From Sphaeroforma arctica JP610 (taxonomy: Eukaryota): a stretch of DNA of 40,572 bases. Shown here in pieces: positions 5,633 through 26,910 of this stretch. The notes under the pieces are model-generated. The model made no database searches. It was given only the letters and a program-made list of their open reading frames with translations, and had not been told where the DNA came from. The stretch spans positions 159,075 through 199,646 of the forward strand of contig NW_014040519.1 in the NCBI RefSeq assembly GCF_001186125.1, written 5' to 3'. The position numbers and the translations under genes are program-made. Each line of letters starts with the position of its first letter. Position 1 is the first letter of the stretch.

Positions 5633-8373
5633 TTCTCTCTATTCATGTATGTCGGACTTTGAAATCACACAAAAGTTCAAAACAGAGTATATAAAAACAG
5701 ACTGTCACAATAGGCCTATATAAAAGGATATTTTTAGCACAAGCCGGGACAAGAGGGTATTTTATGTAAATTAAATACGAATTGCACGCTAGTAGTAAAC
5801 ATGCACATTAGACAAAGTAGAGGGTCAATATCGCTTGAATCAACGTATAATAAACTCAGCCATAGCACCGGTTTTTACTAGTAATCTGTTATAACTTATA
5901 GGGAGTTAAATAGACCTGTTTTCTCAAGATGGGAGTACTTGGGTTACTGACGTTCTTAGAAGTTGACGATCAGTCGATCGGCAAACACACAATGACTGTA
6001 ACACACGTCTCTGTATTCATACCACATACTGAGAATAAGTACTTCTTTGTAGTTGTATCGTGGTAGTCTGGAACCCGGTCCAGTAGCGAATACTCTCGAC
6101 GCTATTTCCAATGTGAGAAAAACTTAAGTTTAAACACCATATTTTTATGAGTGTTGATACTCATACCAACGAGCTTGTACCTTAAATGTCCTATTTCATT
6201 CTCTTTGTACTTGATCGCGCGGTTTAGACCATCTGCTTGATTTTCCAATCGATTCTTTTTTAAGTGCTATTTCGAAAGGCCTCTATAGTAGTCTTCAATT
6301 GCGTTGCTAGATTACCTACCGCATTTTCAAGAGCCAGTCTTACTTCCTTTAACTTTAATTCTAATACATATCGTGCCAGACTTGGCATGTATTACAGTCC
6401 AACAGTGTTCGTTGAGCTACACGCTGTACGTTCGCTTCTGCGTCTTATAGGCTTGTCAGATCCCAACAAATCATATATGAGTGAACGTTCTGGCATATAT
6501 TCTGAGCTTGGTCCCCTTTGGTTTGCCGCTCCGTCGAGTTTACTGCCATGAACTGGTTATACGTGATAATGTTCGCATCTTTTGTTAGTTTGCATACCTT
6601 ATTCTTCTTAACTATATACTTCGCCGGTACACATGCTTACGACAGACCCTGTAGTCTTTACCGATGTATTCATCGATAGGGCTACTCTCTTTGTTCTGCC
6701 TAGCTTCCGGATTCTCTCTTGAGCTTTCCTTCAACACAGACTCGACAGTGTAGTTCAAATTCGGTATGGGCCCTTGCAAATTCAATAGCAGCTTTGAAAT
6801 CTGGACCTGGCAAGACAGTGTGGCGAATGGGACCGACTAGGACAGCTATAGTGTATTCCCAGATGATTTTCCAACCGCTGTGATACCATGACGTAGAAAT
6901 GTGTTTGCTGTGGTGTGTGTCATGTAGAAATATTTTTGTATTTGGCGTATAAAAAAGGCAACTATAGTGCATGAGGTCGAACAGGCACACCTATTGCAAT
7001 TTTGTATCGGTAGAAGTATTCAGTTTGAGTAAATCTGAAATATCTGACCATCGCGAGTTTCTATAAACATTTTTTTAATATTATGTTAGCCTTCCGGAAG
7101 TCGTTGACGATCCCTCCTTCGGAGCCGGCGAATTGAGAGATTTGTCCAGTTTTGTGTGATGCACAGAGATCGGTGGTAGAAGTGTATTCGAGAATTGACA
7201 TAGCTCGCGATGTAACATCCAGTCCTCACAATGAACGCGGGGTGATGGTCGGTTAGTCAAAGTAATATTGTCCTTGAGTGCCGTTTTGAGTGTGTTGGCC
7301 CGACTACGATAACCATTGTTGCGATGGTACTCATTATATGTCAACGTGATTTTTGGAGTAGAGGTGTTTGTATTGGCGGAAGACTGAAATTGAGTAGTTT
7401 GTGCAAAGACCGGGACTAAACTTGTGTTGCTATGCAAGGGATTCCGATGTGTCTGATTGACTAGCGACACAATCAGAAAGAGACAGGTTCAGGGGCAGCG
7501 AGAGAAGGGTTAATTTGTTCCCAAGCTTCGATCCATTCAAATATCAGTGGTGGTAACTTCGTCATGGTTGTTGCTGAGGAGGAACTGTTTGGCTTGTTTT
7601 TGATATTGTTGACCAAGGCCGAAGATAAATGCATCTTAGGTACAAGCATTTGTCAGAAGGTTTTTCTGACGAGCGGCGTCAGGTTTGAGATGATTGAGCG
7701 CGTTTGAACAGTTCAAGGTAGTCAAGAGTGATCGGTTTGGCGATAGGAGAAGATTGGTGGGAAAGCATGGTGCGAAGAAGTTGAAACAGTGGCCATGGGG
7801 CAAACATGAGATATTCAGCTTCAAGGCAGTGGCGAATTTTAGTGGTCATAGAGTTGAAGAAGACGTGACAGGCAGCATGTTACGATCCGCCTTCTTTAGT
7901 GGTAGTTCTAAAATTCGTTGTTCGTAAGTGGGGGGCAGGAGATAGATAGACGCTAGGTGTCTGACCAAAAGAAATGACTGGTTGGCCATCCTGGATGAAC
8001 TATAGAGCAGCTGTAGGGCGTCCTTTTTGCCTGCGGAGGCGGCAACGAAGACATATGAGAGCCACACATCAGGATTGCGGCCATCTGTATTGAGTTGAGT
8101 CTATTTGTGGGGAGAAATTACAGTAACTGTATTATTGCCATCCATATTGAGAGAGTTTAATAGAGGTAAATACAGCCCATAAACTAATAGACTAAGAAAG
8201 CCTTTTTGGAAAGACTGTTTATTATATTTGTCACACAAATATATATACTATTTGAGATGTATACATCTGGCTGTCAGGTTGTCAAGTAGAATAAGTTTTT
8301 GTAACACTTGTTTAACAGTAAATAAACTCTGCTTATGATTCTAAACGTAGTTGGACTTCGAGTCCTAAAAACA
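5633..8373 (-). mobile_element. Decayed, internally deleted Ty1/copia element B: LTR (8185-8373), PBS, gag, MTase C-terminal part plus integrase CxxC, unknown 3' region
   Basis: PBS-like GTTTATGGGC (8175-8184). Gag homologous to A (LKPDAARQKNLL..QAKQFLL vs LKRDAGRQGNFL..QARQFLL). HCRVCVEGK integrase half zinc finger in ORF 6700-6990. LTR shares gattctaaac..agtt.ga with LTR A. Confidence 0.75.
6735..7075 (-). pseudogene. Remnant of Dam-like adenine MTase domain directly before the copia integrase CxxC (element B)
   Basis: KNVYRNSRW (AAC TCG CGA TGG at 7048-7059, two substitutions from NPPW), then IGVPVRPHAL*, then IWEYTIAVLVGPIRH..DFKAAIE..HT..CRVCVEGK; aligns with copia D. Confidence 0.7.
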
Positions 8374-9589
8374 ATGAGAAAAGCATATTTTTCTTTTAGA
8401 ACGAACAGAAAAACTGGAATCCATCGTTGTTTCAAGAATTTTGGTGTTTTATTTAAAACCGATCAGACGACGACTCGATGAATGTAAAATTGTAAATATA
8501 ATTTTTGATTCATGAATTATAACTAAAATCCTAACCCCTTAAACTCGGCTTTCTTCTTTAAACTACAAACCTCTTAACATTTGGTGTTTTACCTCATAGT
8601 TTATTTTCTAACCCATCATGACACAAACCTAGAACCTACATTTTATAATTATTTACCAACAGAATTTAGAATAAACTTTAGTCTTTGAGATAATTCCTTT
8701 GAAGGCCTTTTAACTACTATCGAACTGTTTTTGAGATAAAATAATCAACATGCTTTCAAGCACTCAACTTACTCCCAAGAGCACTGTGGTGCCTTGGACT
8801 GTGCTAGCCTACGATAGATCTAACATTGACTTATGGAGCAGAACATGGAACTAACAATGTCCTCTCATTACATCGACGACTTAACTTCTATTCTGCACTA
8901 TGATCAGGAACTTCCTAATGATAAAGCCTGTGCCGACATGTTTAACACTCGTAATGAAGAACAAGACAATTCCCAGAACTACATGGTTGAAAACGAAACA
9001 TTTATTACGTCAGTGCGCAATATTTGCAAATACCAGAAAGCGAAGACACTTATAATTTCATCTGTGGATCCCTCTCCGACTTCAGTTGCCACGACGATCA
9101 AAAATGAACACCCCTGGAGTAAATTTTATTTCCTTAAGTCGAAATATAAGCACCAGTCTAAGCTTATCTATAAGGTTTACGCCGCTGACCTTGCCGCTAT
9201 GTGTCGTGTACCTACTGAAGATCTCCGTGAATGGTTCTTCCGCTGTGAAACTTCTATTGCTACCGCATCCACTCAAAGTACAATCTTGAATTCTCGTGTT
9301 CAACAAAGCCTTTTTTTTGGCGAACTTGGTCAAGCTGACCCAGACCTATCAACTTCGAAATGTCTATATATGCAACTTCGTGACCTCACTCTGATTGAAA
9401 TTGATTATCTATGTACATACCTAAAAACATAACATCGATATACACAGTCTACTTCTGTAAACAGTAGTGAATATTACTCAATTTGAAGCTATGTTGAATA
9501 TACTACGACACAATTTAAGCCAGTTATGATTTAGCAGTGGTAGCTTGTGTAAGACTGATCGGGACTACCAGGATGTACCTCTAGCTGTT

Positions 9590-11560
9590 TCAAAATCTTT
9601 TCTCGAATTTATTTTAATGAAAAATTGAAAGTACATTTACAGACTTTTTATGTACATTTAGTGACCTTCCGGTGCTGTATTTTTTTTTGATGACACCGGG
9701 GTTCGACACCAGTTCGGAACCTTTTCATAATACATGGGTTCAACACCAGTTCGGTATTTTACATGGCCGCGTGTTTTACAGTGAATTTGATTTTTCAAAA
9801 CCAGTCTCTGAAGAATTTTCCACGACAAACAATTACTTTCATACTAAAATCTTTCTGCGCACCATTATACTGCTGAGAGCTTGTTGTTGGATCACATAAA
9901 ACAGTTCCAGCTAATAGACTCGGTAAGAGTTATTCTTATGAAGGGTCCCAGACACTACATTCGTAGTGTATAAAACTATATGTTCCTACGTAGGAACCGA
10001 TATTCCTATGTACGACGGAATCTACTTAGCACTTGGTGACATGAAGCGAGTTTATAAGTATCTACCAAGATGGGGTACGTTTGATGCTGCACATATGAAT
10101 ACTGTTTCCGGTGGCGTACTTCAGTTTCTCACCACATACAATGCTAATGGTCATCTGGAGTTGTTAGCTATTTCGACAGCGAGCAAATAGAATGGGCCCT
10201 AATGGAACAGATTCAAAGAGCTCTCTGATAGTTGTTTTCCAAATATGTCTTCGTACCTCGTAGATAAAGAAAAAAGTAAGTATTTTCGTTTTGAATTCAT
10301 AGCTACGATATCATGTTTCAAGTGGGACAAATATTTATCTGATTTTTTTTATTGCAAAGCAAGTCTTTATTAATTAAGTATATTCGTGTTTTAATAGGCA
10401 TTCATCAGAGCATCGCAAATTCAGTGCATCAAGTTCAAGCTAGAACTTGTATCCTTCATATCATCAAAAACGTGATGAACAAAGGGCTACTTGGTAGAAA
10501 CGATAAACCAACTCATCAATTGGTAATTGCTATGACTAAAGCAGCTACCGAACAGGGATACATTTACCACTCTCAGGTAAGCTTTCATTTGTATACAGGC
10601 AAGACTCGGAATGGGCTTTTTCTTGCACTTCATGCACAAATTGCGGGTTGGTTTACTATTTGCTTACTTGTGAATCTAAGAGTATACGGGACAACCACGA
10701 GCTTGGAGACAAGATTATGGATTACTTGGAGAGGCGAAAGGAAGAATTAACCAATTATCTATTCGTGGAGGCTCGTCGACAACACAATGCAGTCTACTAT
10801 ACAAGTATCGTAGGGCAGAAAGCTTACGACTTAAGGGACCACCACAGGTGTCCGAAAGGATCTCTGTATTGATCCCATGGAATCATAGCAACGCACATTG
10901 GAACTTGGGCGATTGTTATATTGTACACAACTAACGCTACAGTTACTATTTCAGATGGTATGCCAAATCCTGTTAGAGCTGACGAACAATTCAATTATAT
11001 AGTACGATGGATGAAATGTTACCTCACAGATAATGTTACATACAGCCTAAAAGTAGGCGGTATAACCCAACACGACAGTTTTAGCTGTGGGGGTTTGCTT
11101 TGTGCCTATACTAGAGCAGTATCAGAAAATCCACAACTCGTGCATAATTTGGAGGTATTGTCTTCGCACGAATATGTCACAAGCGTCCAACATGACAACA
11201 GAATTAGAAAATGGATTTCCAAAACACTATTCCCGTATATTCCTGTAAAAGAGCACCACGTGAGTTGCGAACCAGGCAGTGATATAAGCTTGAATGAAGC
11301 AGCATATATCAACACCAATCAATAAAGACAACATACCCCCCCCCTTCAACACATTTATTCGTAAAAAATGGATATAGCCGAAGGCTCTTTGATTTAAATT
11401 TAAGCAAGTTTTGCGCGATAAAGTCACTAAACGTACATAAAAAAATTGGAATTGTCGCTAAGTACAGATTCAATCAATATTTCAGTACGTTTTCATCGAG
11501 AAAAAGGGTGAATGTACATTTAGTGACTTCTCTACATTTAGCGATTTTGTTCATGATTCA
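9590..11560 (+). mobile_element. Mutator-like (MULE) DNA transposon remnant: spliced DDE transposase plus Ulp1/C48 protease domain
   Basis: FDAAHMNTVSGGVLQFLTTYNANGHLELLA..W..F..LVDKEK, intron 10276-10397, then SIHQSI..RTCILHIIKN (MULE D..D and CxxH). VLIPWNHSNAHWNL and QHDSFSCG (Ulp1 His and Cys motifs). Inverted motif tgtacatttagtgac (~9651) / gtcactaaacgtaca (~11423). Confidence 0.8.
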
Positions 11561-12169: not shown

Positions 12170-13009
12170 AAGATCATGTCTTCTGTAATTTGTACAATAT
12201 TTTCATGTACGGGTCATGTCGATGATGTATATAGTCAACGAGTGAATAGAAACAGGCTTCTTGTCCTACGTCTATTATTCAAACACTACCTGCTATCGTA
12301 GCTCGTATTGCAGTTTGCGCAGCACAGATCACAGACAACGACATCAATATAGATGACGGCGCCATGGTAAGTCACATGTACACGAAAACACGTCACTGTC
12401 TACTTCATGACATTGAACAGGATAGGTTTCCACTGTTAAATATAATAAGGAACATGGAACCCTCCCTATTCTGGGACTCATATACCTGGACTCAGACAAC
12501 ACAACCCCTCATTTTCTAATACAATATGTAAGACTGATCTCCGGGTTTGCGATCGTATTTACAACCCAAAAAAAGGAGATGCCAATGAAGTATTTTCACA
12601 ATAACCGATGGTAGAGAAAGTTTCGTTTCACATATGATCATGATTAATAAAGACAGCAGACGCGCCATTCCCAATAGCTCTTCTGACTGAGTTCAATTAT
12701 ATCATACGTAACACTCTTTACTAAGCGTTACTTGATTTTGACCACAAACATTGATGGCACAACACTCACCCTTCCACGTATAAAGGGTAGCTACTATGTT
12801 CAATACAGCGCTCTTTGTGACTTACTCACGCCCCCGTTACAAAGGTTACTACCCCTCTACCAACACCAACTGCCACACACATAGTCATGACATACGACGC
12901 CTATCACCGTTCTACTGACGACCGTCAACGGTCTAAAACAACTTCATACTTACTCATTTCCCTCCACCATGCGTGGACACCAAAGCCTGACAATTTAACA
13001 CAGCACTGG

Positions 13010-13370
13010 TCACTGCTGCGTGTGATTTCTTGAATTTCACTCTGACAATTGACATCTGCACTGTTCCTATTAATGTTCTATTTCCCTGGTCTATTTCTGG
13101 ACTGATCGGAGGTGAACCTCACCAAAACAGAACTCGCATATGCATTATGCTTCCCTGGTCATTGATCGCCCCTAGCATTCAAGCCAACACTAAAACTAAT
13201 TTTCAAACTGTGATGGTTGTCTCTCTCCGGCCATGCGCTCCTTGGTCGACCGCATTTATAACACATATCCACGGTCAACCTTTAAAAGTCCAAAATACCA
13301 CTGCCAAGCGACAAGGTACCACTGCTGTAGGAAAACCGTCCTGGGTGTGTACTAAAGTGGCACTCCTTGA
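13010..13370 (+). pseudogene. Degenerate MTase-like insert between HH (~12965-12980) and CAIC (13444-13455) of copia C integrase
   Basis: TLTIDICTVPIN (motif I position), RICIMLPWSLI (NPPW position), VMVVSLRPCAPW, GKPSWVCTKVALL; collinear with the copia D and gypsy MTases. Confidence 0.65.
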
Positions 13371-15600
13371 TAACTTTACTACCCATTCTAACCATGGTCC
13401 GGAGGCCATCGACGTCAAACAACATCCGGAGTTTCCTAACCATTGCGCTATATGTGTTAAATTCAAGTTCCGCGCCACTGCGGTCTCTCACTCCTCATCT
13501 ACACACAACGCTTATGGAACTGGCGAAAGACTACATGTTGACATGCAAGGGCCGATCCCGCCTGATCGTTACGGCAACGAATATACACTTAATATGTTCG
13601 ATGCAAGCTTTCATTACGGCCTTCATTCTCTTCTCCCTAATCGCCAAAATATGTCCAAAAACATACAACGGCTTTATACTGTTGTCACTCCTCACTGGAA
13701 ACCCGATACCTTGGTCGCTGACAATGTCTTGGAATTTCACAGTACCTCTACGTATAATCTTATGCATGACCATGCAATGCAGCTTCTCAAGCCCCCGCCT
13801 CGCACCCCCCAGCGTAACGCTAAGATCGAACGCCTACATGATGCTCTAAACAGTTATGTGCGTATACTACTTAAGGACGCTGGTATACATAAACCCTGTT
13901 GGGGCGATACATTTATGTACGCCTGCGATTTTTGTAACCATTGTCTTGGCCGCAACGACACCATTCGCACATCCGCCGAGACATTTATCTAACGATCCGA
14001 ATTCCGTGACCCGAGAGCTCGTTTCGGCTGCCTGGTTGTGTTTAAACTATGGAGCCGTGCTTAAGGCCAGCAGGAATATCTTCCCAGTGCGTGTATGGTG
14101 TCCTTCTAGGACGCACCAGTAACTCCTTTCAGGGCTGCTACTGCATACAAACTCTTGGCAGATTCGGATTCACACTAAATATCTCAGATTTATCACCGAT
14201 CGCAACGTCCAGTGGTCTGCAGATGGAAAGTCAGACTCTCTATCAGAGACACCTAGCTCGTGTGACATCCCTGTCGACTGGATGAACATTGACTCACCAC
14301 TGGGCATTACCAGCGTTTCATTCATCGTGCACCCCTCCCCCTCTCATTGGCCTCTTCAACTCACTCTTTCAAGATGCCATCACGCCTGAACCGACAGGTC
14401 TACTCTCGCTCTCTTTCCTGAACACATTACGCAATAGGACATCCCGCATGTCCGCAACTTTCCCTCCTCCTTTTTCACCAGCTCTACCCATCATTTTTCC
14501 TCCCGAGCCAGTTGCGGCTCCTCTTCCACCGCTTATCAGTATCCCTTCTACGCCCATCACTGTTTTACCTACACCGCATGACTATCAGTGGACTCCTGCC
14601 TCCCAATACTTCCGACCAACACCCTCTTACCGCCCCTTCCTCACCTGCAACCCCTGATTCATCAATGTATCCGACCCCCGGTGCCTATTCCAGTCTCTCT
14701 CCATTGACCTGGACACCCGCTCCTGGATATGTACACCAACACCCTATGTCATCTGTTCCCACGACCCCCTCCTCCAATAGTGGCTTTGGTCACCTTCTAC
14801 CTCTCCATTGGACCCCTGCTTATAAATCCGGTCATCAACATGCATCCAAGTCCCCTATGCCGACTGTCACCTCTCCCCCAGCCCCTATATCTCCGCGTCT
14901 CATCCCACTTCGTTCCCAACACACGAAGTACCCACCTGGCCACCTCCCCCAACCAACTAACACCTCTTCTTACCCCTCCCTCCGCTATTCTTGATGACTT
15001 CCCTTTAACCATTAACTTCCGTCGACAACCCCATCTCGATGCTTCATTCGCTACCTATCTTCTTTATCACCTATTACTCCGTTACGTCCTATCACTACCG
15101 CAGCAAGAAATATCACTCCCACTACCCGCACGTCTCCTAACCTTCTTCCTGGAACTCGATGTTTTACATGATCCTAAATTCTAATACGCTTAAATCTATC
15201 TCTAGCGCCCAGAAGTCCCCCCCCCCTGGGCTGATTGATACGAAGTTATAGAGACAGAGCACAACAACCATCTACGCAATAACCTGGCCGATGTCCTTCC
15301 CCTGTCTGCCGCCCCCTCTTCTACCAAAGTGATACATAGTAGATTTGTTTTTGTACTTAAACGTGATGAACATAGTAAACTCACCAGGTTCAAAGCCATA
15401 ATGGTTGCTTGTGGTGACGAGCAGGTCGGAGGTGACAGCTATACTGATACATATGCGCCGGCTGCCCATTCTATGACGCTTCGTCTCTTCCTAGCTATCG
15501 CTGCATTTACCGGTAAGCAAGTTCATCACTTTGATATGATATCGGCTTTTCTTTACAGCAAATTAGATACACCTGTCTATTTGTTTCCGCCGAAAGGATC

Positions 15601-15934
15601 TGTGGAACTAGGCTACTATGTAGAGTATGGAGAGTAGCTTAAAGATACGAGTCAAAGGATACAATAGACCTCTTCTCAAGCACTGTTACCTCAGCTACGA
15701 AGAGTCCTTCAGCTGAGGGAACCAAACTGAGTCTTTATTTGTGTTTTCTAATTCACTAGAATCAGGTTTCTACTTGAGTGTTTCTCTCACGCGCGGAGTC
15801 CCGGTACAAGTTACCGGTTCTACCACTGCTATTTCTGATGACTCTATTACCAGGAATATTTGAATTTGAATTCCAAAACTCAGTATTTGATGATTCTGTG
15901 GTTTTGGAATTTGGATTGGCTTTTTGATATCTGG
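15601..15934 (-). repeat. LTR family X copy (probable 3' LTR; continues at 23944-23950), truncating copia C RT and split by copia D
   Basis: Reverse-complement match to ~28610-28955. Starts TGTGG where the RT similarity ends. After the TCTGG TSD it ends tgctaca next to gcccccc (PPT-like on the minus strand). Confidence 0.8.
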
Positions 15935-16057
15935 TGATAGAACATATATTTACAAGTAAGTTTATTATCATATTGTAGGTCTAATATGTATTGACACTCT
16001 GACACTCTGACACCAAATATCTCTAAGGTTAGTTTAAGTTTTAAATTCGCTCCAACA
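15935..16057 (-). repeat. 3' LTR of copia D (123 bp; ~57 bp shorter than the 5' LTR)
   Basis: Matches 23759-23938; preceded on the minus strand by AGGAG and the pol C-terminus HHMHFTPHFGIQIQECW. Confidence 0.9.
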
Positions 16058-16103
16058 CTCCTGAATTTGAATGCCAAAATGTGGTGTGAAGTGCATGTGG
16101 TGA

Positions 16104-16949
16104 NNNNNNNNNNNNNNNNNNNNNNNNNNNNNNNNNNNNNNNNNNNNNNNNNNNNNNNNNNNNNNNNNNNNNNNNNNNNNNNNNNNNNNNNNNNNNNNNN
16201 NNNNNNNNNNNNNNNNNNNNNNNNNNNNNNNNNNNNNNNNNNNNNNNNNNNNNNNNNNNNNNNNNNNNNNNNNNNNNNNNNNNNNNNNNNNNNNNNNNNN
16301 NNNNNNNNNNNNNNNNNNNNNNNNNNNNNNNNNNNNNNNNNNNNNNNNNNNNNNNNNNNNNNNNNNNNNNNNNNNNNNNNNNNNNNNNNNNNNNNNNNNN
16401 NNNNNNNNNNNNNNNNNNNNNNNNNNNNNNNNNNNNNNNNNNNNNNNNNNNNNNNNNNNNNNNNNNNNNNNNNNNNNNNNNNNNNNNNNNNNNNNNNNNN
16501 NNNNNNNNNNNNNNNNNNNNNNNNNNNNNNNNNNNNNNNNNNNNNNNNNNNNNNNNNNNNNNNNNNNNNNNNNNNNNNNNNNNNNNNNNNNNNNNNNNNN
16601 NNNNNNNNNNNNNNNNNNNNNNNNNNNNNNNNNNNNNNNNNNNNNNNNNNNNNNNNNNNNNNNNNNNNNNNNNNNNNNNNNNNNNNNNNNNNNNNNNNNN
16701 NNNNNNNNNNNNNNNNNNNNNNNNNNNNNNNNNNNNNNNNNNNNNNNNNNNNNNNNNNNNNNNNNNNNNNNNNNNNNNNNNNNNNNNNNNNNNNNNNNNN
16801 NNNNNNNNNNNNNNNNNNNNNNNNNNNNNNNNNNNNNNNNNNNNNNNNNNNNNNNNNNNNNNNNNNNNNNNNNNNNNNNNNNNNNNNNNNNNNNNNNNNN
16901 NNNNNNNNNNNNNNNNNNNNNNNNNNNNNNNNNNNNNNNNNNNNNNNNN
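16104..16949. other. Assembly gap (N run) inside copia D RNase H
   Basis: Run of N. Confidence 1.
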
Positions 16950-19042
16950 GTATTTGGTGTCAATCACGCCTTGTTCCTATAGATCGCGGATATGATGTAC
17001 ACGGATGTCGATGTGTTTCAGTTGTTTTAGCGTGCCCGTGTTGGTAATGACGTGGACAGCAGACTTGTTATCGCAGCATAGTGTGGTTGGGCTGTCAGGT
17101 GCGAGGTTTGAGTTCAGACAGGAAGTTCCGTAGCCACTGTATGTGTTTGGCGGCCTCACTGGCGGCAAAGTACTCGGCCTCAGCAGTGTTATTGCTGACT
17201 GTTTTCTGTCGCCTGCTTTTCCAGATAACGGGTGTGTTGCAAACACGGAGGACATAGCCTGTCGTTGATCGGCGTGTGTCAGGGTAACTAGCATAGTCTG
17301 AGTCTATGTATGTGTCGGTTGATAGGGGTTGTTGACACTTTGCGTATGTGAGTCCAAGTGTGGGGTGTATTTTGAGATAGCGTAGGACTCTGCAGACGGC
17401 GTTCCAGTGGTCCTCGCATGGGTTATTGAGGAACCGCGAAAGGGAGTTCACGGCGAAGGTGATGTCAATACGGGTGAGGATAGACAGGTAGAGGAGGGTG
17501 CCGACGAGTTCGCGATACGCGCAGGGAAAGGGCGGGCCATGATGAGCGGAAAGGATGGTTGCGGGGAAGGGCGTGTGGGTGGCGTGGACAGACTCAAGGC
17601 CGAAGTGCTAGACGGCCTCGTCGATGTAGGAGGTCTGGACAACGCTAGTGGATATATTGTTTGTGACGATGCGACAGCCTAATAGCCAGGTGAGCTCTCC
17701 GAGTATGGAACAGTCGAAGACGGCAAGGAGTTCGCTTGAATATGTCCACATTTTTGCGGGTAAAACCGCAAATAATGAGGTCGTCGACATATATAAACAC
17801 CGTGCAGTTATATGTGAGGGTGCGGATGTGAAAGAGACATCGGTCAGTGTGTGCTTAGGTGAAGCCAAAGGATAGGAGCTTGGACTTGGATCAGAGAAAA
17901 CCAGAGCTTGCCGGACTGCTTGAGCCCGTAGAGGGACTTTTTGAGGGCGACAATTTTGGAAGGGTCAAGGCCGATTTAAGCGGGGCCTGATGGAGCTTTC
18001 ATGTAGATCGGGTGGTCGAGGTCGGCGTGAAGGAAGGCGGTATTGACATCCATTTGCTCTGTGTGCCAGTCCTGGTCGGCGGCAACAGCGAGGAGTGTGC
18101 GGATACTGTCATGAGTGCAGGTAAGTGCGTAGGTCTCCGTGAAGTTTACGTCCTTGGTTTGTGTGAAGCCGCGAACGACTAACCGAGCCTTGTACTTGTC
18201 GATGACGCCATTGATCATCTTTATCTTGAAGACCCACGTAGATGTGACAGGAAAGACGTCAGGTGGGAGGTCAATGGCATCACAAATGACGTATGTGCCG
18301 GTACTGCGGAGGCTGTTAAGCTCGCATTGAATGGCCGCGCGCCAGAGGTCAGTTTTAGGGGATTTCAGTGCTTATTTGATGGTAGTAGGGGTGATTGGTG
18401 TGTTTTGTATAGATTCGCATACACTGTAGACATGCTTGCGCACTTTCTCGAGTTCCTCTTGGTCGGCCTTTTGCTTGCGCGTGAGTGGAGGAGGGTTGGA
18501 CGTAATAGCAGGGATGTCGGTGTGGTGTGTGTTGTCACATGTGTCGATGAGAAGGTTGCGTAGTTCATGGGAGTTGGAACGTTTACGGATGTGTTGTTGT
18601 AGCTGGTCATTGTGTGCATTGCCGAGGATGCGTGATTGTTCCTGTGTGTGGTGTGCGTCAGTGCTAAGTTGTGCCTTGTTCGCTTGCCATGCAGCAGGTG
18701 TTGACTTTGTAGGGCGAGTGACACGCTGAGTGGCGGCTTGGAGGCGATGATGGAGATTAGGGGGTGCAGGGTTGTCGGAGGTCGCCGAAATGGGGTAGGT
18801 GGAGGGCGAAGGTGTGTCCTCTGCGTGTGAACTGGATGTGGTGAGTGGCTCGTGAGTGGGTGCGGGCTCGAGGTCAGTGGATTTGCGTTGTGGATCCGTG
18901 GGGACGGATGGGAGAGTGTCACGATACGTACCTTGGAGATTTGGTCCTCGGTAAAATAGGGACGGGATTTGGAGCCATGTGATTGCCAAAATGGGAAGAT
19001 TCCTTCGTTGAAGGTCACGTGACGCGTGGTGATGACCTGGCT

Positions 19043-19920
19043 TGTGGCGGTGTTGAGCATGCGGTATTCTTCAGGGTTTTTGGAGAAGGGATCGCGAGCA
19101 AGGATAACGCCGAAACGAACTCGTTTACGGAGCTTTTCTTTGTTACTATGATCGATAGACATAGTCATGCAGCCGTAGACTCGTAATGCATGCACATGGG
19201 TGGTGGGTTTGCGGCCGAAGAAGTGCTCGTAGGGACTGGCACGGCCTGGGTTGGTGTCACGAGGAGAGATTTTGGGTATAGGGGTTGCGTGAGACTTAGC
19301 TTCCGCCCATATGTGGCGGGGTTGCTTACATTGGGCGATGAGGCAGAGAGCAGTCTTCATATTGACCTGGTGACCACGTTCAACGCCGCCGTGTTGGGCA
19401 GAGTCGTCCGTGCCGTTGCATAGGATTTGTACTTGATATAGATGGTTCACTCGTTTAAATTCGGCGGAAATGAACTCACCCTGTGGCGGTGTTGAGCATG
19501 CGGTATTATTCAGGGTTTTTGGAGAAGGGATCGCGAGCAAGGAGAACGCCGAAGCGAACTCGTTTACGGAGCTTATCTTTGTTACCATGATCAATAGACA
19601 TAGTCATGCAGCCGTAGACTCGTAATACATGCACATGGATGGTGGGTTTACGGCCGAAGAAGTGCTCGTAGGGACTGGCACGGCCTGGGTTGGTGTCACG
19701 AGGAGAGATTTTGGGGTTAGGGGTTGCGTGAGACTTAGCTTCCGCCCATATATGGCGGGGCTGCTTACATTGGGCGATGAGGCAGAGAGCAGTCTTCATA
19801 TTGGCCTGGTGGCCACGTTCAACGTCGCCGTGTTGGGCACAGTCGTCCGTGCCGTTGTATAGGATTTGTACATGATGTAGATAGTTCACCCGTTTGAATT
19901 CGGCGGAAATGAACTTACCA
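19043..19920. repeat. 439-bp tandem duplication within copia D integrase
   Basis: tgtggcggtgttgagcatgcgg at 19043 and 19482; about 24 substitutions between copies by manual count. Confidence 0.95.
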
Positions 19921-20289
19921 TCGCGGCCGGTGACGATAGTGCATATGCGATGGCGGCCTATGTCTTCAATTCAGGTGTAGAAGCGGTCAAGGGTGGCAGC
20001 GGCGTCGTCTTTGTGTTCAAGGTTTTCCTCGTATTCGAGACCAGAAGTGCGTTCAAAGTAGCGGATGGTATAAGCGTGGCCCCCGTAGCTTTCTTCGAAT
20101 TTCCCTTCAAGGTCGACTTGCCATTCGGATCCGATGTCAGGAAGAGAACGGGGCTTGTTACGAGTGGCTTTCTTGCGCATCTTGCCTCTCGCGCAGGAGG
20201 TGCAAGTGCATTCAGGTTTGCCGGTGTGGAGGATAGAGATGTCAATGGCGGTTTGGAGGTCGGCGGCAATGGGGTCGGCGTATTTGGTG

Positions 20290-20730
20290 GGACCGAAAAT
20301 GGCGACACCAGTGTAGAGCCAGGGTGGATTGGTAACAAACTCTTGGGAGCCATTGGAGCCACGGCGGATGAAAGTGGTGGGCGATGATGGGATGATTTCG
20401 ACGTGAGACTGAAGGTGGTCCATGAGTTGTGTCCACCAGGAGGCGCGCGGTTTCACAGGGAAGACCATGATGACTCGGCCGGCGTCTTTGTCGAGTTTGC
20501 GACAGCTTTTGGGGAAATTTTTCTAGGGTTGATTTCCGTAGAGCTTCTTGTTTGGTTTATGCCAGTTTTGTTTGTATGCGTCGTGATAGTGCGTGTCTTT
20601 GTCGGTGAAGTCTTCGGTACAGTAGGTGGGTACTTGTTTGTTATGTTTGGATGAAAACAAGTCGATGTCGATGGGGCCGAAGGGCTTTTGAACGTGGTCT
20701 TCGAAGAGATCGGGTGCGAGTTGGTAGTCG
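20290..20730 (-). pseudogene. Dam-like N6-adenine DNA methyltransferase domain inserted in the copia D integrase zinc finger
   Basis: DYQLAPDLFEDHVQKPFGPIDIDLFSSKHNKQVPTYCT..DAYKQNW..KLYGNQP* (TAG for TGG), KAVA(K)LDKDAGRVIMVFPVKPRASWW (frameshift-repaired), TNPPWLYTGVAIFG; flanked by HHARFGH (~20805-20825) and CTSC (~20193-20204). Confidence 0.85.
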
Positions 20731-21314
20731 TTGCAGTAGGTTAATGGCGGTTTGATGGGGAGGTTGTTAGCGAGAGCCATAGCTTTGGTGGTGCGTGTGG
20801 ACTGGTGTCCGAAGCGTGCATGGTGGAGGTGGAGGCTCTCGGCTTGGAAGGCGTTGAGTTGGTAGCGGCCGGCGGCCTCGGTGACGATCTGAATGGTGTC
20901 AGTGCCATAGGTGATGTGACTTTCGCCTGGAGTATTGGGTGTGTTGATCTCGGGGAAAGTGACTGTATAGCCATTGCATTGGAGATTGCGGACGGATAGG
21001 ATAGGTTGGGCAGCAGTGGGTAGCACGAGGGTAGGGCCGAGGCCAAGGATGGTACCGCGTGTGTATGCGGTGGTAGTAGATCCGCCAGCGAGTTCAATAG
21101 TATATGTGCCGGACTGAAGGTCAGTTAGGTGATCGGTGGAGGTGACGATGGAGATATCTGCCCCTGAGTTGATGAGGGCGGTGGAGAATGTGGTGGCGAG
21201 GGCGGTGTCGAGTTGGGGCGTCGCGCGCAGAGTGAGAGATTGCACAGTATAGTAGGATGGGAGGGTGGTACTAGAGGAGGGGGCGGGTTGGGTGGCGCGC
21301 GTTGCCCTGGCATC

Positions 21315-23043
21315 TCAGTTGGTGGTAGCGGCAGATGAGTTGCGCTTGCCGCGAATACACGCTTCAGTCGTGTGGCCGGTGGAGTATCTACAATGGTCGC
21401 ATGTGAGTTTTCCTGTGGTGGTGCAGGCATTCCCTTTGTGGTCTTTGCTGCCACATCGGCGACAAGTAATATTGGGACACTCATATGCAGTGCGGCCAGG
21501 CTGGTGGCAGGCGACGCAGTTACCGGTGGTATGGTTTATACCAATGGGTGGGCGTTTGAGGGTATCGGTGCCATTACTACGTGGTTGGAAGCGAGTACTG
21601 GCTACGCCATAGAGAGAGGGACCCCTTAGTACTGCACTGGTATTGATTGCGTGATTGCGAATCTTTGGGACTACGGTGTCAAAGGTGTATGTGTTGTCGG
21701 TAGTGGCCATGATATCCTGTGCGACGAGCTGGAAGCTGTCTGGCAGGGATTGAAGGAGGGAGCAGATATGGTAATATTCAGGCGTAGTGGTGTTGAGGCC
21801 TTTGAGTTGGTCCCTGAGCAGAGTTACTTTAGCGATGCTGTCGTGTCTAAGCAGGGTTGCTGTGGAAGTGTGAGGAGCTGCACTAAGAGTTCCCAAATGC
21901 GGCCAATTGTGACGGAGGTAAAATCTTGGCATATGTGTTGGTAGAACAGACTCGGGGGTTGATCGAGATATATGTGTCATATTGCTCGGGTATGCCGGGG
22001 CCAAGGGATTCGAAAAGGATCGTAGTACCGACGGTGAGCTCGGCATCATCGGCAGTAGTGTTGGGGTGTAGGGTGTGGAGGACGTCGTGCTTTTTCATCA
22101 TATGTCTGAACTGTCTGTGCCAATTAGTGAAGTTTTTATCACCCGTGAGTTTGGTGGCTACATAGGTGTCATTGTATTTGAAGGCTTTGGCAGTGCTGAC
22201 GCGGGAGGCAGGGAGGTTGTGGAGTTGTTGCGTAGATTGAGTGTGAGAGGTACCGGAGGGGGAGTGTGGGGGTGGAGTAGTCGGTGGTGTCTGAGGACCT
22301 GCCATACGGCGAAGCTTTTGCTCGGCAAGAAGGAGACGGTGACGAAGTGTGGTGGAGTCGGTGTCGATGGGCTGAGAGCGTGCTGTGTCAAGTTGTGTTT
22401 TGAGTTGCGCGATGTCTGTATGGGCGTTGTGGAGGGATACCTGTAGGGCATCCATTTCGGCAAGAGTAGCAGTGAGGAAATCATTGTGTTCGTGTCGGAG
22501 ATAAAAGATGGTGGCTTCGAGCTGGACATTGGTGGCACGGAGTTCAGATATAGTGTAAGTGTGGGCAGTGGCTTCGGCGACGGAATCATCGCGGATTTTG
22601 CGAAGGCGCTTGTTGTCGGCGGTGAGATCGGATGTGTCGGGGTGAGGGGATGCGCGAAAGTGATCAAGTTGTTCGTTCAGCGAGTTGCGATCAGCGATGC
22701 AGGCAGTGAAGTTGGCTTGGGTGTCGTCGCGCTCCTTGCGGGCGCTTTCGAGTTTGGTGATGAGAATGTCCTTGTCTTGCTGGAGTTGGTCGAGGATTTC
22801 TTCGAGGTTGGAGGTAGAGTTGGCATCACGCTGTGTACGAGCCTCCTTGAGTTTGTCGAGTAAGGTGTCCTTTTCTTCTTTGAGGACGTAAATGGTGGCC
22901 TCGTGTGCGTCATTAGTGGCACTAAGGGTGTTATATTCAGTGGTGTGCGTGGCATACGCGTCATTTCGTTCAGCGATCGCACGTGTGGTTGCGAGGTCTG
23001 AGAAAGCAGCATGTGCTGCGAGGTATATAGTGATGGGATGCAC
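21315..23043 (-). pseudogene. Copia D gag with long N-terminal coiled coil and three zinc knuckles (frameshifted)
   Basis: ORFs 21883-23043 and 21315-22049; knuckles CVACHQPGRTAYEC, CRRCGSKDHKGNAC, CDHCRYSTGHTTEAC. Confidence 0.85.
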
Positions 23044-23307
23044 TGGTGGGCGGTTGTCATGATCAAGGACGCGGTCAAGAATTTTGTTTAGTATGTTGAG
23101 GTGCTGGTTGGCGTGGCTGATGGATTGATAAGCGTCAAGGCGAGGGAAGAAGTTTGTGTGAAATCTTGTGGCGGAATCGAGGTTTGTGAAAGTAGATCGG
23201 GGTATGAGGACCCCTTTTGGTTGAGTTGGAGGGTGAGATGTTGGTGCGAGGTACGGGGGTGGTTGGGTGGTTGTTGCCTGGGTGGTAGCGACTGAATAAA
23301 AAGTATG

Positions 23308-23732
23308 TGTTAGAGTGTAAGATGGTAGTCTTTGAATAAAGCGTAATTGTATATCTTTATTTACAACCTCACCTTTGGTTTTATACTCAAGGTGTTTGTG
23401 CCAGTGTTCAACCGCTTAGGTTGGCCAGGGTGAAAACTCATATGGTCAGTATGAGAAACCTTTTGCAGAACACTTTAACACTTATATATTGTTCTATAGC
23501 ATAATCTCTGCTACTCGCTCTTACGCCGATCAATCAATGTTGCTTGGCTTTCAGAGCAAATTTCTCCTAGGTATCGGCTTTCGGAGCAATGCTCTCATAG
23601 GAGCAAATGTATTATTAACATGATGTGGTTAATACTTTGATCCGCTTTTCGGAGTGACGCAACTCCTGTGATTTTATTCAAGAAAAAGAGTTTTCTTGCT
23701 ATTGAAACTTGCTTGAGATCTGTAGTCTCTCA
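23308..23732 (-). repeat. Solo LTR family Y inserted in the leader of copia D
   Basis: TGTTAGAG...CTCTCA termini; TSD GTATG at 23303-23307 and 23733-23737; TATAAAA and AATAAA on the minus strand; homologous to 25424-25930. Confidence 0.9.
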
Positions 23733-23748
23733 GTATGGTACCAAGTAT

Positions 23749-23758
23749 GCCCATAACC
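23749..23758 (-). promoter_or_regulatory. Primer-binding site complementary to the tRNA-iMet anticodon arm (half-tRNA priming)
   Basis: GGTTATGGGC immediately 3' of the 5' LTR. Confidence 0.85.
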
Positions 23759-23938
23759 TCTTAGAACATATATTTAAAAGTAAGTTTATTATCATATTGC
23801 AGGTCTAATATTTACATAGTCTCAATATTCTATGGCATGTATGCCACGCTGTATTTGCTTAACATGACATTTTGACACTCTGACACTCTGATACCAAATA
23901 TCTCTAGGGTTAGTTTGGGGGTTAAATTCGCTCCAACA
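23759..23938 (-). repeat. 5' LTR of copia D (180 bp)
   Basis: Begins TGTTGGAG on the minus strand; matches 15935-16057; flanked by TSD and PBS. Confidence 0.9.
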
Positions 23939-24379
23939 TCTGGTGCTACAGCCCCCCAACTTTGTGCTTCTTAGCCTGAGTAGGTTGATAAACTGATATC
24001 CTACAGTACTAGATCATCTAGAGATTGATGTTTCTGTACAGGGAAAACTCGTCCCTTAGGGGGTTAAGATGAAAAACCTGCCACCATTATCTATTCTTAC
24101 ATATTACCTAATTTAATATTTATACTGTGACGGGAGTTCTCAACCATGCTAATCGGAGTCGGTCTTGACCGGTGCTCTCGGTTGATCTCAACTTGGCTTA
24201 GGAAAACGCATCTCAATGGTGGGTCTACAACCGAGTCTTTGGTCCTTATCCCTCTGGTATGTGGGCGGAGCATACTTCAAGGTGAATACTGTGGGAGTGT
24301 CCCTTGGTATCAGTGAGACTTGGTTAATCCCCCCGCCTCGTGCGCTTTCTTTTACTCACTGATCTTTCATAAGTACTCG

Positions 24380-24540
24380 TTGCCGTTAGATATAGTGTAT
24401 GAACATCAGCATCTGCGATGTCTGACTCATGCGTCCAGGTGTCTAGGTTCGCTCCCCATGTGTCCATTGTAGTAGGTACTCTTGGGACGTTCACCACTTG
24501 GATGGACGGCCTGTGGTCGAGTATCGAGGAAAACTGAGTC
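24380..24540 (-). pseudogene. Chromodomain at gypsy integrase C-terminus (frameshifted)
   Basis: FSSILDHR..QEYLLQW..WGANLDTWTHESDIADADVHTLY. Confidence 0.75.
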
Positions 24541-24566
24541 TTCTCCGATGGTTGTACTTGGTTATT

Positions 24567-24985
24567 GAAAGTAAATTATTCCGGAGCATTGGCTTTTGTA
24601 CGAGTCCAATTAGCTCATCACTGACCGAGTTAGAATATTCCAGGGCTTCCCATCAAGGTTTCAGACAAAATATCCGTTGCCCTCCCTGCATACTATTTTG
24701 TATGGGAAGTAAGTTCTGCCGGAGCATCGTCTGTTTTACGAGTCCAATTAGCTCATCACTGACCGAGTTAGAATATTCCGAGGCTTTAGTCCCATCAAGG
24801 CTACAGACGAAATATCTGCTGCCCTCCCTGCATACTGTTTTGCAGGGAAAGTAAATTCTTCCGGAGCATTGGCTTTTTTACGAGTCTATTTAGCTCATCA
24901 CTGACCAAGTTAGAATATTCCGGGGCCTTAGTCCCATCAAGGCTACAGACAAAATATACGTTGTCCTCCCTGCATACTATTTTGA
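24567..24985. repeat. Tandem triplication, ~140-bp unit, in gypsy integrase C-terminal region
   Basis: ccggagcat...agctcatcactgacc.agttagaatattcc...ctccctgcatact occurs three times. Confidence 0.95.
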
Positions 24986-25423
24986 ATGGCACGCCATAGG
25001 GTGCTGTCATTTTGTTCATGTCAACTTAATAATGAACCTGGACAATGTCCCCTTCCTGGAAATGTACAAACTTCTTTTGGTATTTTTGATCGTATGCTGC
25101 GCGTCTTCTCTTGATATTGCCCAGCATTAGTGTATAGTTGTGGCCTGGTTGCCTCTTCTAGATTCTGCAGTCGCTCCTCCCATGATATTGTCGTACTGGG
25201 TGCGTTCACTGCTGCGTTGTAGTCCGGGAGTTGATTCTGTCTGCGATCAAAGTACACATTAAATCTCGGTGGTTTATGTCGTCTTGATGTGCGCAGATTG
25301 TGACCCATTTGTACGAAGGGAAGTTGTGAGCACCAGTTGCCTGGGGTTTGTTCAACGAATTTTCGTAGCAATTGTATGATGTCTCTATGTAATCGCTCGT
25401 TAGCACCTAAGACTTTAGGTTGG

Positions 25424-25930
25424 TGTTAGAGTACAATGTAGTAGACTTTAAATAAAGTGCAAATGTATGTATTTATTTCTGACCTCACCTTTGGTTTTAT
25501 ACCGAAGGTGTTTGTGCTAGTGTTCAGCCGCTTGGGGTGGCCAGGGTAAGGGGTTTTTCTTTAACACCTGCGGAACACTTTAACACTTCGATGTTTTTCT
25601 ATTTCAACTTCGCTGCAACTAAATCTCACGCTGATCACATGATGCCTTTCCGCATAGGTTGTGACTCACATAGAATCGCAGCTATTATTAATATGTTGTG
25701 GTTGACAGGCTTAATCCACTCTCGGGAATCGGTTGAGAAACTAAATCTGCTCTCGGAAGTCGGTAAAGTAATAACTCAACTCTTGAGAGTAATTTGAGCA
25801 ACTTGATTAGCTCTCGGGAGTGAGCAAACTCTGATGACTTAGCTCTCGGTAGTGAGCTAATTTTGATGACTTCCATAAATCAAAGATGGTTTCTTGCTGT
25901 AAAATCTGACCTGAGACCTGTAGTCTCTCA
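25424..25930 (-). repeat. Solo LTR family Y inserted in gypsy integrase core
   Basis: TGTTAGAG...CTCTCA; TSD GTTGG at 25419-25423 and 25931-25935; removal restores SRPYQPKVLGANERLH. Confidence 0.92.
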
Positions 25931-26519
25931 GTTGGTATGGGCGAGAGACTAGGTGTTGTGTCGGCGCTTGTTCAATGACTTTTGAGAGTATATCATTAAC
26001 ATATTCAGTGCCTTAGTCTGTCTGTATGATTTGTGGGAACCCATGTTCGCACATTATTGGAACCAGCGTGCGTGCTACATACAGTTTCTGCTGATTTGTC
26101 CATCATTGGTCCGAGTATTACATATGATGAGCTAACACATATGTGTGGCCTCTTTTTTGAGTCCAATAGTGGGTTGATGGTGTCCCTTCGAACTCTGTCT
26201 CCTGGAAAAGCGGCTGCGATTAATTGTAAGGGATGAAAACCCTTTTTGTGAATTTTATTTTTGAGACACGGTACACACCCTTCAATGTATCTGTGTACAT
26301 GTTGTTATATTTGTGGCCAATCGTATCCATCTGCTTGCAATTTATTTGCCGTTTCCTCAGTAGTGTAATGTCCCAAGTTGTGGTATTACCCGATGATGTT
26401 GTCGTGTGTCTCGTATTTAGTCTCATTCAATGCATCTCCAGATTTATAACTGCTTGCGATGCTGAAACGTGTATGACAGGTTGTTCCCGCGTTAAGTCAA
26501 AGTATGGAAACTTCACTCA

Positions 26520-26910
26520 TATCTTTGCTACGAATGTGACACCTCATGGGGACTTGCCACACGCTTTCGTGACGTGTTGTTTGTGTTTTCCATTAGCATC
26601 GGTTCTTCTTCTAGGAAATACATGAATTTCGGAAACCACATTGCATTTAGGTAGTAAGGTACACTTATCGTGATGCTGGTTGCCTCTTCAATGAATGTGT
26701 CGAGGACATCAGTATGAGTTCCCAAGGCGGGTTTGCCCATGCATTTACCATTTAATTTTCTGTGCCCACTTCTGTATGAGCGCATTCTGGTTTTTTTTGT
26801 AGTATTTATCTGTGTGTGCATTGCGTGCTGATGCAAACAGATCTACTGTGAGTTTCTCAAGCAGTCTTTCAGCTTCTTTATATAATCTGGGGTGTAGCAT
26901 TAAGTCTATA
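26520..26910 (-). pseudogene. Dam-like N6-adenine DNA methyltransferase domain between RNase H and integrase of the gypsy element
   Basis: DLMLHPRLYKEAERLLEKLTVDLFASARNAHTDKYY..NALIQKW..NAWANPPWELI..DVLDTF..ITISVPYYLNAMWF..CGKSP*GVTFVAKI; DLFAS at 26829-26843, NPPW at 26722-26733. Confidence 0.9.

What the first reader, a model, noticed from the sequence alone, without database searches (positions are those of the whole stretch)
6735..26910. One MTase family shared across copia and gypsy superfamilies (four copies in one window)
Seen: copies at 6735-7075, 13010-13370, 20290-20730 (copia) and 26520-26910 (gypsy) share a distinctive C-terminal motif beyond the core: TNPPWLYTGVAIF / GKPSWVCTKVALL / KIIWEYTIAVLV / GKSP*GVTFVAKI. 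The copia carriers have two different gag types. Inference: the domain moved between unrelated LTR superfamilies, or was captured repeatedly, each time next to the integrase N-terminus. This suggests a lineage-wide retrotransposon 6mA system. Established context: 6mA marks active chromatin in several unicellular eukaryotes, so mimicry or escape from silencing is plausible but untested.
Basis: partly seen in the sequence, partly recalled or inferred. Interest (0 to 1): 0.9.

Follow-up and report, generated by a model that had tools for sequence, protein, structure and literature searches.

The report
Adenine methylase inside copia integrase finger
Four decayed jumping genes carry the same adenine-methylase-like domain; the gypsy-type carrier is already described, but the three copia-type carriers have it inserted in the middle of their integrase's zinc-finger motif, which likely keeps it attached to the integration machinery so that it would mark new copies as active.

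Summary
All four copies are real and belong to the DIRS-type Dam family (PF05869, PCIF1-like fold). Near-identical proteins are labelled Sphaeroforma arctica. The gypsy carrier (RNase H-Dam-integrase) is the DAM-LTR class of a May 2026 preprint, which covers this species and its 6mA map; this scan also met a gypsy carrier in another genome. That main text never mentions copia. Here a full-length copia (LTRs, target duplication, RVT_2) and two decayed relatives carry Dam between the His-His and Cys-x-x-Cys halves of the integrase zinc finger (189-200 residues apart, 28 without the insert). An open database protein confirms the layout; a metagenomic copia has Dam upstream of the protease instead. 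Three reader claims need correcting. The 'distinctive' C-terminal motif is family-wide (42 of 54 DIRS-like domains have its Trp). Copy 1 is longer than given. Copia-gypsy transfer is unresolved (not sisters in the best tree; AU p 0.12). Activity is unproven: 0 of 6 Sphaeroforma copia carriers keep the catalytic Pro-Pro, though most are decayed. Verdict: new variant of a known kind.

The parts
6829..7230 (-). Copy 1: Dam-like domain, five frameshifts in the cassette; motif I DLCA at 7171-7157, motif IV position reads NSRW at 7059-7048
7309..7326 (-). Copy 1: first half of integrase zinc finger (HRNNGY; second His replaced by Tyr)
6724..6747 (-). Copy 1: second half of zinc finger (CRVC); no integrase core or RT detected behind it
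7480..8400 (-). Copy 1: decayed gag of family B (approximate limits)
   Evidence: E 5e-15 to the gag of the truncated element at 5400-4300
12905..12922 (+). Copy 2: decayed first half of zinc finger (HRSTDD)
12979..13377 (+). Copy 2: Dam-like domain, strongly diverged, short deletion, motif IV position reads MLPW
13444..13992 (+). Copy 2: CAIC half of zinc finger and integrase core, same open frame as the Dam domain
15239..15634 (+). Copy 2: copia-type RT (RVT_2), cut short by the gypsy LTR
   Evidence: (E 3.4e-20)
15935..23938 (-). Element 3: full-length Ty1/copia, gag-PR-IN-RT-RH, 5-bp target duplication CCAGA, inserted in the 3' LTR of the gypsy element; assembly gap 16104-16949 inside
23759..23938 (-). 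Element 3: 5' LTR, followed by primer-binding-site-like GGTTATGGGC (copia-type, recalled)
15935..16057 (-). Element 3: 3' LTR, 112 of 123 aligned bases identical to the 5' LTR
21318..23300 (-). Element 3: gag of family A (coiled coil, Retrotran_gag_2, zinc knuckles)
20805..20822 (-). Element 3: first half of integrase zinc finger (HARFGH), within the weak gag_pre-integrase match
20289..20735 (-). Copy 3: Dam-like domain in frame with protease and integrase; motif I DLFS 20663-20649; motif IV position NQP followed by a stop at 20525-20523
20181..20204 (-). Element 3: second half of zinc finger (CTSC), 200 residues after the second His
18365..20150 (-). Element 3: integrase core and SH3-like domain, with a 439-bp tandem duplication
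16977..18371 (-). Element 3: RVT_2 reverse transcriptase and RNase H region, broken
   Evidence: E 6e-27
26520..26912 (-). Copy 4: Dam domain of the gypsy element, frameshifted; motif I DLFA 26843-26829, motif IV NPPW intact at 26733-26722
27002..28495 (-). Gypsy element: decayed region upstream of Dam holding RT and RNase H
   Evidence: RT_RNaseH_2 E 2e-6; E 3e-22 to P0156
25084..26385 (-). Gypsy element: integrase H2C2 (26385-26266) and core, split by a solo LTR
15616..15934 (-). Remainder of the gypsy 3' LTR (its first 12 bases lie at 23950-23939, behind a G-rich tract)

Best explanation
A DIRS-type Dam-like adenine methyltransferase domain sits between RNase H and integrase in the gypsy element and inside the integrase zinc-finger motif in two divergent copia families; the copia insertion likely happened once, long ago, and likely leaves the domain fused to the mature integrase, where it would methylate adenines on the element's cDNA or its insertion site so that the host's 6mA maintenance would keep the new copy transcribed. 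Shown: family, fold, position, the same insertion point in both copia families, retention at about the same divergence as the protease. Inferred: single copia capture, fusion to mature integrase (the protease could not cut it out without splitting the HHCC motif), catalysis, substrate and benefit. All four copies in this window are broken. The donor of the copia domain (DIRS or gypsy) is unresolved.
For: Position: His-His to Cys-x-x-Cys spacing 189, 200 and 194 residues in copy 1, copy 3 and the open protein P0027, against 28 in copia P0050, which has no insert there. P0027 aligns through protease, His pair, Dam and Cys pair with element 3 (E 2e-28). P0010 and P0002 show the same His pair-Dam junction. 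Retention: element 3 vs P0027 is 32% identical in Dam and 33% in protease; vs P0010 53% in the Dam first half, 41% in integrase core, 33% at the protease end. Tree: five Sphaeroforma copia domains form one group, 94/85, not starred. Fold: model pLDDT 82.9; best matches are N6-adenine methyltransferases, PCIF1/CAPAM first (Foldseek E 1e-4; Z 9.8, rmsd 3.0, 134 aligned). Motif I Asp kept in 6 of 6 and the motif IV Asn in 5 of 6. Context: DAM-LTR insertions in S. arctica are more often 6mA-methylated and more expressed than other LTRs (preprint).
Against: The catalytic Pro-Pro is intact in 0 of 6 Sphaeroforma copia carriers against 142 of 146 other rows, though in the four least decayed this is not significantly worse than their other conserved columns (3 of 8 vs 22 of 29, p 0.08; p 0.17 without one doubtful position). 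Eukaryotic Dams gave no 6mA in E. coli. Iyer et al. call DIRS1 MTases likely inactive. The nearest solved folds act on RNA. The model does not show the zinc finger re-forming: residues 34-39, 208-211 and 214-222 are under pLDDT 50. FastTree on 151 rows split the two copia families. The published 6mA enrichment was reported for elements described as gypsy.
Confidence: 0.5

Rival explanations
1. The copia domain is a catalytically dead or weakened binding module. It would bind nucleic acid, methylated adenine or transcription machinery and steer integration or packaging, as a chromodomain does, rather than write 6mA.
For: 0 of 6 copia carriers keep the Pro-Pro; forms seen are NPIW, NIPF, NILS, NSRW, MLPW, NQP-stop. 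A Trp kept in 94% of other rows is Lys, Arg or Ile in the five carriers that cover it. Negative E. coli assay. Iyer et al. propose inactive DIRS1 MTases that bind transcripts or mimic PCIF1. A place inside integrase suits targeting.
Against: Most of the six are decayed or mis-annotated and the erosion is not significant against their other columns. NIPF also occurs in an open 1208-residue gypsy polyprotein (P0116). Motif I Asp and motif IV Asn are kept.
Confidence: 0.3
2. The domain is an active RNA methyltransferase of the PCIF1 kind that modifies the element's own transcript or the RNA strand of the RNA:DNA intermediate inside the particle.
For: PCIF1/CAPAM is the top structural match in both searches, followed by DIMT1, Erm and KsgA; E. 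coli Dam and T4 Dam come at Z 7.9 and 7.8. Pfam PCIF1_WW is hit by several relatives. Iyer et al. derive the DIRS domain from PCIF1. No DNA methylation in E. coli.
Against: Z differences are 2 or less, and the domain lacks a target-recognition part, so fold does not give substrate. Pol is cut up only inside the particle, after translation (established). The preprint's tree places the family among prokaryotic and phage Dams.
Confidence: 0.15
3. Evolutionary rival: the copia domain came directly from, or went to, the co-resident gypsy DAM-LTR by template switching in this lineage.
For: Both carriers share a genome and are nested in each other. FastTree groups copia family B with the gypsy copy and P0013 at local support 0.89. 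The AU test does not reject copia + copy 4 + P0013 as a clade (p 0.119). Copy 1's best non-copia matches are gypsy domains.
Against: Careful tree: not sisters, forced clade 20.8 log-likelihood units worse. For P0027 the gypsy copy ranks 44 of 152 hits, behind DIRS-like domains. The shared motif is family-wide. Insertion points differ.
Confidence: 0.3
4. Artefact: the copia-Dam junction is a nested insertion of a DIRS or gypsy fragment, or a mis-assembly.
For: The window is a nest of insertions with two assembly gaps. All evidence for the zinc-finger layout comes from proteins labelled with one species.
Against: The junction is in frame and at the same place in three window copies and in P0027, P0010 and P0002 from contigs of other lengths, across families about 30% identical. 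Element 3 has paired LTRs and a target duplication around the whole.
Confidence: 0.03

Closest known systems
DAM-LTR retrotransposons, ichthyosporean lineage (Fernandez-Moreno et al., bioRxiv 10.64898/2026.05.21.726589; whole main text read, supplements not seen)
   Same: Same Dam family, same species named, gypsy layout like copy 4, same proposed 6mA-permissive-chromatin model.
   Different: The text describes transfers into Ty3/gypsy only; 'copia', 'Ty1', 'PF07727' and 'zinc' occur 0 times. Its RT tree uses RVT_1 and its Dam cut-off is E 1e-5, which the copia carriers reach barely or not at all in my Pfam scans (P0027 1.2e-5, P0010 1.2e-3, P0003 none). No insertion inside integrase is described.
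DIRS1-type tyrosine-recombinase retrotransposons with an MT/Dam domain (passages of PMC4738411 and PMC5890265)
   Same: Homologous domain, including the C-terminal Pro-x-Trp motif; 54 of the 148 scanned relatives have RT and/or RNase H followed by Dam without integrase in the same protein (my label 'DIRS-like').
   Different: Carriers here use a DDE integrase and direct LTRs; no tyrosine recombinase was hit in the frames scanned.
Retrotransposon-borne cytosine methyltransferases (SymbioLINE-Dnmt, SymbioDIRS-Dnmt3, KnitGypsy-Dnmt3; passages of PMC5890265)
   Same: Repeated capture of a DNA methyltransferase domain into pol.
   Different: Different enzyme class (C5 cytosine); that paper states that Symbiodinium Copia lacks a DNMT.
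PCIF1/CAPAM cap-specific adenosine methyltransferase (PDB 6irv, 6irx)
   Same: Best structural match of the modelled copia domain.
   Different: Cellular RNA enzyme of about 490 residues in the solved chains, 11-16% identity; no evidence here for the same substrate.

Membership tests
DIRS-type Dam domain (PF05869) | Sequence homology to the family | tested here: met
   Pfam Dam on copies 3 and 4 (E 0.0039, 7e-5; under cut-off) and on P0027 (1.2e-5); 383 relatives at E <= 0.001; copies 1 and 2 link through P0027. The profile (copy 3 E 5e-38, copy 2 4e-4, copy 4 3e-7, copy 1 no hit) was built from hits to copy 3, so it is not independent for that copy.
DIRS-type Dam domain (PF05869) | Rossmann N6-adenine methyltransferase fold | tested here: met
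   Model of the P0027 cassette, pLDDT 82.9; PCIF1 Z 9.8, rmsd 3.0, 134 aligned.
Active N6-adenine methyltransferase | Catalytic motif IV NPP[Y/F/W] | tested here: inconclusive
   Met in gypsy copy 4 (NPPW) and copia P0050 (NPPF); not met in 6 of 6 Sphaeroforma copia carriers, which keep the Asn in 5 of 6 but are mostly decayed.
Active N6-adenine methyltransferase | SAM-dependent methyl transfer to DNA | not testable with these tools
   Published E. coli assay of other family members was negative.
DAM-LTR (Fernandez-Moreno 2026), gypsy copy 4 | Dam in a Ty3/gypsy pol with RT, RNase H and integrase | tested here: met
   Order RT-RH-Dam-H2C2-core, collinear with open polyproteins P0156 and P0157. 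No chromodomain hit in the frames scanned.
DAM-LTR (Fernandez-Moreno 2026), copies 1-3 | RVT_1, Ty3/gypsy-type reverse transcriptase | tested here: not met
   Elements 2 and 3 have RVT_2 (E 3e-20, 6e-27) downstream of integrase; copy 1 has no RT.
DAM-LTR (Fernandez-Moreno 2026) | 6mA enrichment and expression of insertions | not testable with these tools
   No methylation or read data could be examined.
Ty1/copia | Order gag-PR-IN-RT-RH with RVT_2 | tested here: met
   Element 3 complete; element 2 up to a truncated RT.
Ty1/copia | Direct LTRs, 5-bp target duplication, primer binding site | tested here: met
   Element 3: LTRs 112/123 identical, TG start, 3' LTR ends in CA, duplication CCAGA. 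Not found for elements 1 and 2.
Ty1/copia | Copy 1 has its own integrase core and RT | tested here: inconclusive
   No hit better than E 0.08 in 5300-6760 with five integrase queries; assignment by kinship of the cassette with P0027 (98 / 96-95 support).
DIRS | Tyrosine recombinase and no DDE integrase | tested here: not met
   DDE integrases in elements 2-4; no recombinase hit among 20 + 99 frames scanned.

The most novel reading that the evidence does not exclude
Ty1/copia elements captured the Dam domain at least twice, and in ichthyosporeans it went into the integrase zinc finger, making an integrase-methylase fusion that writes 6mA on the new copy at the moment of integration.
Probability: 0.3. 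Interest if true: 0.75.

Novelty: new variant of a known kind. Interest (0 to 1): 0.5.

Why it matters
It extends Dam capture from DIRS and gypsy to the other main LTR superfamily, in two layouts that an RVT_1-based screen would not classify. The place of the insert is informative: a domain inside the HHCC motif cannot easily be cut away from integrase, which points to action at or near integration and so narrows the open question of when and on what these retrotransposon Dams act. It is directly testable, because Nanopore 6mA data for this species exist (GSE331346). It also means that the published DAM-LTR versus other-LTR comparison may have copia carriers in either group. An integrase N-terminal domain that tolerates a 150-residue insert is of structural interest too.

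Tried and rejected
No whole genome is held and no read data could be examined, so copy numbers, young copies, dN/dS and expression were not measured. Word-based protein searches found no zinc-finger-insert carrier outside proteins labelled S. arctica (2 of 80, 4 of 921, 8 of 7995 candidates); they are insensitive, so this does not show absence. Viral contigs: none with the copia alignment; six weak partial hits with the mixed alignment, not examined further. Metagenome scan with P0050 gave one locus, L001, integrase only, no Dam. Phage records: four hits at 24-26% identity, E 2e-3 to 4e-3; not used as outgroup, so the trees are unrooted. Single-sequence fold of P0027 failed (pLDDT 30.7). ESM Atlas: no hit by features; by structure eukaryotic RT-Dam and Dam clusters at TM 0.60-0.66, none with copia domains among ten rows. 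AU tests rejected neither 'copia + gypsy copy 4 + P0013' (p 0.119) nor 'Sphaeroforma copia + P0050' (p 0.286), so two copia captures rest on the different layout, not on the tree. Rejected: the C-terminal motif as a marker of transfer; copy 3's C-terminal NPPW as the catalytic motif (it aligns with the family's terminal Pro-x-Trp). PMC13308828 proved irrelevant. Literature: eight searches listed no paper whose title or abstract start describes Dam in copia; most listed papers were not opened, subscription journals and Repbase are not covered, and the preprint's supplements could not be seen.
Full report
Observation. The four quoted motifs exist where stated and end four homologous domains. An open database protein, P0027 (named SARC_09551, Sphaeroforma arctica), aligns to copies 1-3 at E about 1e-27 and to the second half of copy 4 at 6e-5. 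Frameshift-aware scores are 373, 282, 212 and (against P0013) 156, with six shuffles each at most 53. Copy 1 starts near 7230, not 7075, and its 'KII' is off-frame. No fifth copy appeared with a profile of 149 relatives, which also missed the frameshifted copy 1. A protein identical to copy 3 over 70 residues is labelled S. arctica, so the window is very likely from this ichthyosporean.

What the domain is. Copies 3 and 4 hit Pfam Dam weakly. A search of 1.84 billion representatives gave 383 relatives, of which 150 were listed and 148 scanned with Pfam. By domains in the same protein I labelled 54 DIRS-like (RT and/or RNase H then Dam; recombinase not checked), 10 gypsy, 4 copia (P0003 by similarity only) and 80 unclassified; P0001 and P0002 were left out as near-copies of copy 3. 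A model of the P0027 cassette (50-row alignment, pLDDT 82.9) matches N6-adenine methyltransferases, PCIF1/CAPAM first, which agrees with Iyer et al.'s placing of DIRS1 MTases in the PCIF1 clade (passages). It says nothing about transfer.

The elements. Element 3 is a full-length Ty1/copia, 23938-15935: LTRs 112/123 identical, target duplication CCAGA, gag, protease, integrase, RVT_2. Element 2 is a copia cut in its RT. Copy 1 has a gag, the cassette and nothing recognisable behind it. Element 4 is a gypsy with order RT-RNase H-Dam-H2C2-core, collinear with open polyproteins P0156 and P0157. The elements are nested in each other. All four Dam copies are broken or strongly diverged.

The copia layout. 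In copies 1-3 and P0027 the domain lies between the His pair and the Cys-x-x-Cys of the integrase zinc finger. The spacing is 189, 200 and 194 residues in copy 1, copy 3 and P0027, against 28 in copia P0050; copy 2's His pair is decayed but aligns. P0002 and P0010 show the same first junction. Two families with different gags share the site while only 30-34% identical along protease, His region, Dam and Cys region, so the insert is old and has diverged no faster than the protease. P0050, from an unnamed metagenome record, is a copia with Dam upstream of the protease: a second layout.

Origin. A careful IQ-TREE run on 51 rows (6 copia, 11 gypsy, 8 unclassified, 26 of 54 DIRS-like picked at random; P0010, P0151, 72 unclassified and 28 DIRS-like left out; unrooted; bootstrap not fully settled) groups the five Sphaeroforma copia domains (94/85), leaves copy 4 unplaced and puts P0050 loosely with gypsy domains (80/82). 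The quick tree held copy 4 in a gypsy-rich group without the Sphaeroforma copia rows (96). FastTree on 151 rows instead joined family B to copy 4 and P0013 and put family A elsewhere. AU tests reject neither a copia-gypsy clade (p 0.119) nor a single copia clade with P0050 (p 0.286). Transfer versus independent capture is therefore open.

Mechanism. Shown: family, fold, place, retention. Inferred: a domain inside the HHCC motif stays on the mature integrase, since cutting it out would split the finger (established polyprotein processing, recalled), so it travels with the cDNA to the target. The most likely job is to seed 6mA on the cDNA or new insertion, which the host's AMT1 would maintain, as proposed for gypsy DAM-LTRs, where S. 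arctica insertions show more 6mA and expression. I give this 0.5. Against it: the Pro-Pro of the catalytic motif is intact in 0 of 6 Sphaeroforma copia carriers versus 142 of 146 other rows, although within the four least decayed this is not significant against their other conserved columns (p 0.08-0.17); related enzymes were inactive in E. coli; the nearest folds are RNA enzymes; and the model does not show the finger closing. A non-catalytic targeting module (0.3) and an RNA or hybrid methylase (0.15) are the rivals.

What is known. Fernandez-Moreno et al. (bioRxiv 10.64898/2026.05.21.726589, whole main text) describe Dam in gypsy LTR elements, with an ichthyosporean lineage that includes S. 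arctica, incongruent Dam and RT trees, and 6mA mapping. The text has no mention of copia, Ty1, PF07727 or zinc and builds on RVT_1; its supplements were not seen and may bear on this. De Mendoza et al. 2018 (passages) know Dam only from DIRS. Eight literature searches listed nothing on Dam in copia. Of four look-ups in this scan's earlier notes, one gave a gypsy Dam carrier in another genome (e1-9950609) and one gave several copia elements with a cytosine methyltransferase between protease and integrase (unchecked); none gave copia with Dam.

Verdict. Real. The gypsy copy is a member of a described class. The copia carriers, and the insertion inside the integrase zinc finger, are a new variant of that kind as far as my searches reach. 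Evidence for that layout comes from one species' records, all window copies are dead, and activity is untested. Interest 0.5; 0.75 if the integrase-methylase fusion proves active.

Noticed in passing
window 15616-28495: Three-level nest: the gypsy element's 3' LTR cuts copia element 2's RT at about 15634, and copia element 3 sits inside that LTR with target duplication CCAGA.
   Followed up: yes
window 23308-23732 and 25424-25930 (-): Two solo LTRs of one further family (TG...CA, 5-bp duplications CATAC and CCAAC), one in element 3's 5' leader, one splitting the gypsy integrase.
   Followed up: yes
window 28610-28935 (+): Inverted second copy (86%) of the gypsy-type LTR sequence at 15616-15935; no directly oriented 5' LTR of the gypsy element was found.
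   Followed up: partly
window about 4000-5400 (-), and 1009-1232: Truncated family-B copia with gag and protease (57% to P0027 over 49 residues) but no Dam; a further gag fragment 85% like element 2's.
   Followed up: partly
window 19043-19919: 439-bp tandem duplication (94.5%) inside element 3's integrase; may be real or an assembly product.
   Followed up: no
P0027, P0002, P0010, copies 1 and 3: A Cys (His in P0010) opens the inserted domain 23-26 residues after the His pair, about where the first Cys of an uninterrupted finger would lie; it may be a relic of the insertion point or an extra zinc ligand.
   Followed up: no
P0050 (JGI/IMG, 1647-base contig): Copia-type pol fragment with an intact-motif Dam upstream of the protease and a normal zinc finger: a second copia layout, host unknown.
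   Followed up: partly
P0035, P0062, P0005, P0083, P0074, P0117, P0141: Dam sits at many places in gypsy-like proteins: after an EEP endonuclease and before RT (P0035, P0062), before a protease-like part (P0005), after integrase (P0083, P0074, P0117, P0141).
   Followed up: no
window 10873-11325 (+): Frame with a Q-x-D-x3-C-G motif like Ulp1-type cysteine proteases of DNA transposons (recalled); no Pfam hit.
   Followed up: no
window 2966-3277 (-): Frame resembling the end of a LINE reverse transcriptase (recalled resemblance; no Pfam hit).
   Followed up: no
window 33345-38578 (-) and 39603-40139 (+): Host genes: a WD40 protein (UTP4-like by recall) and an IQ + RhoGEF protein.
   Followed up: no
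window 24510-24989, 30517-30984, 31060-31704; gaps 16104-16949 and 31091-31110: Tandem repeats of about 142, 28/206 and 412-base spacing, and two assembly gaps.
   Followed up: no
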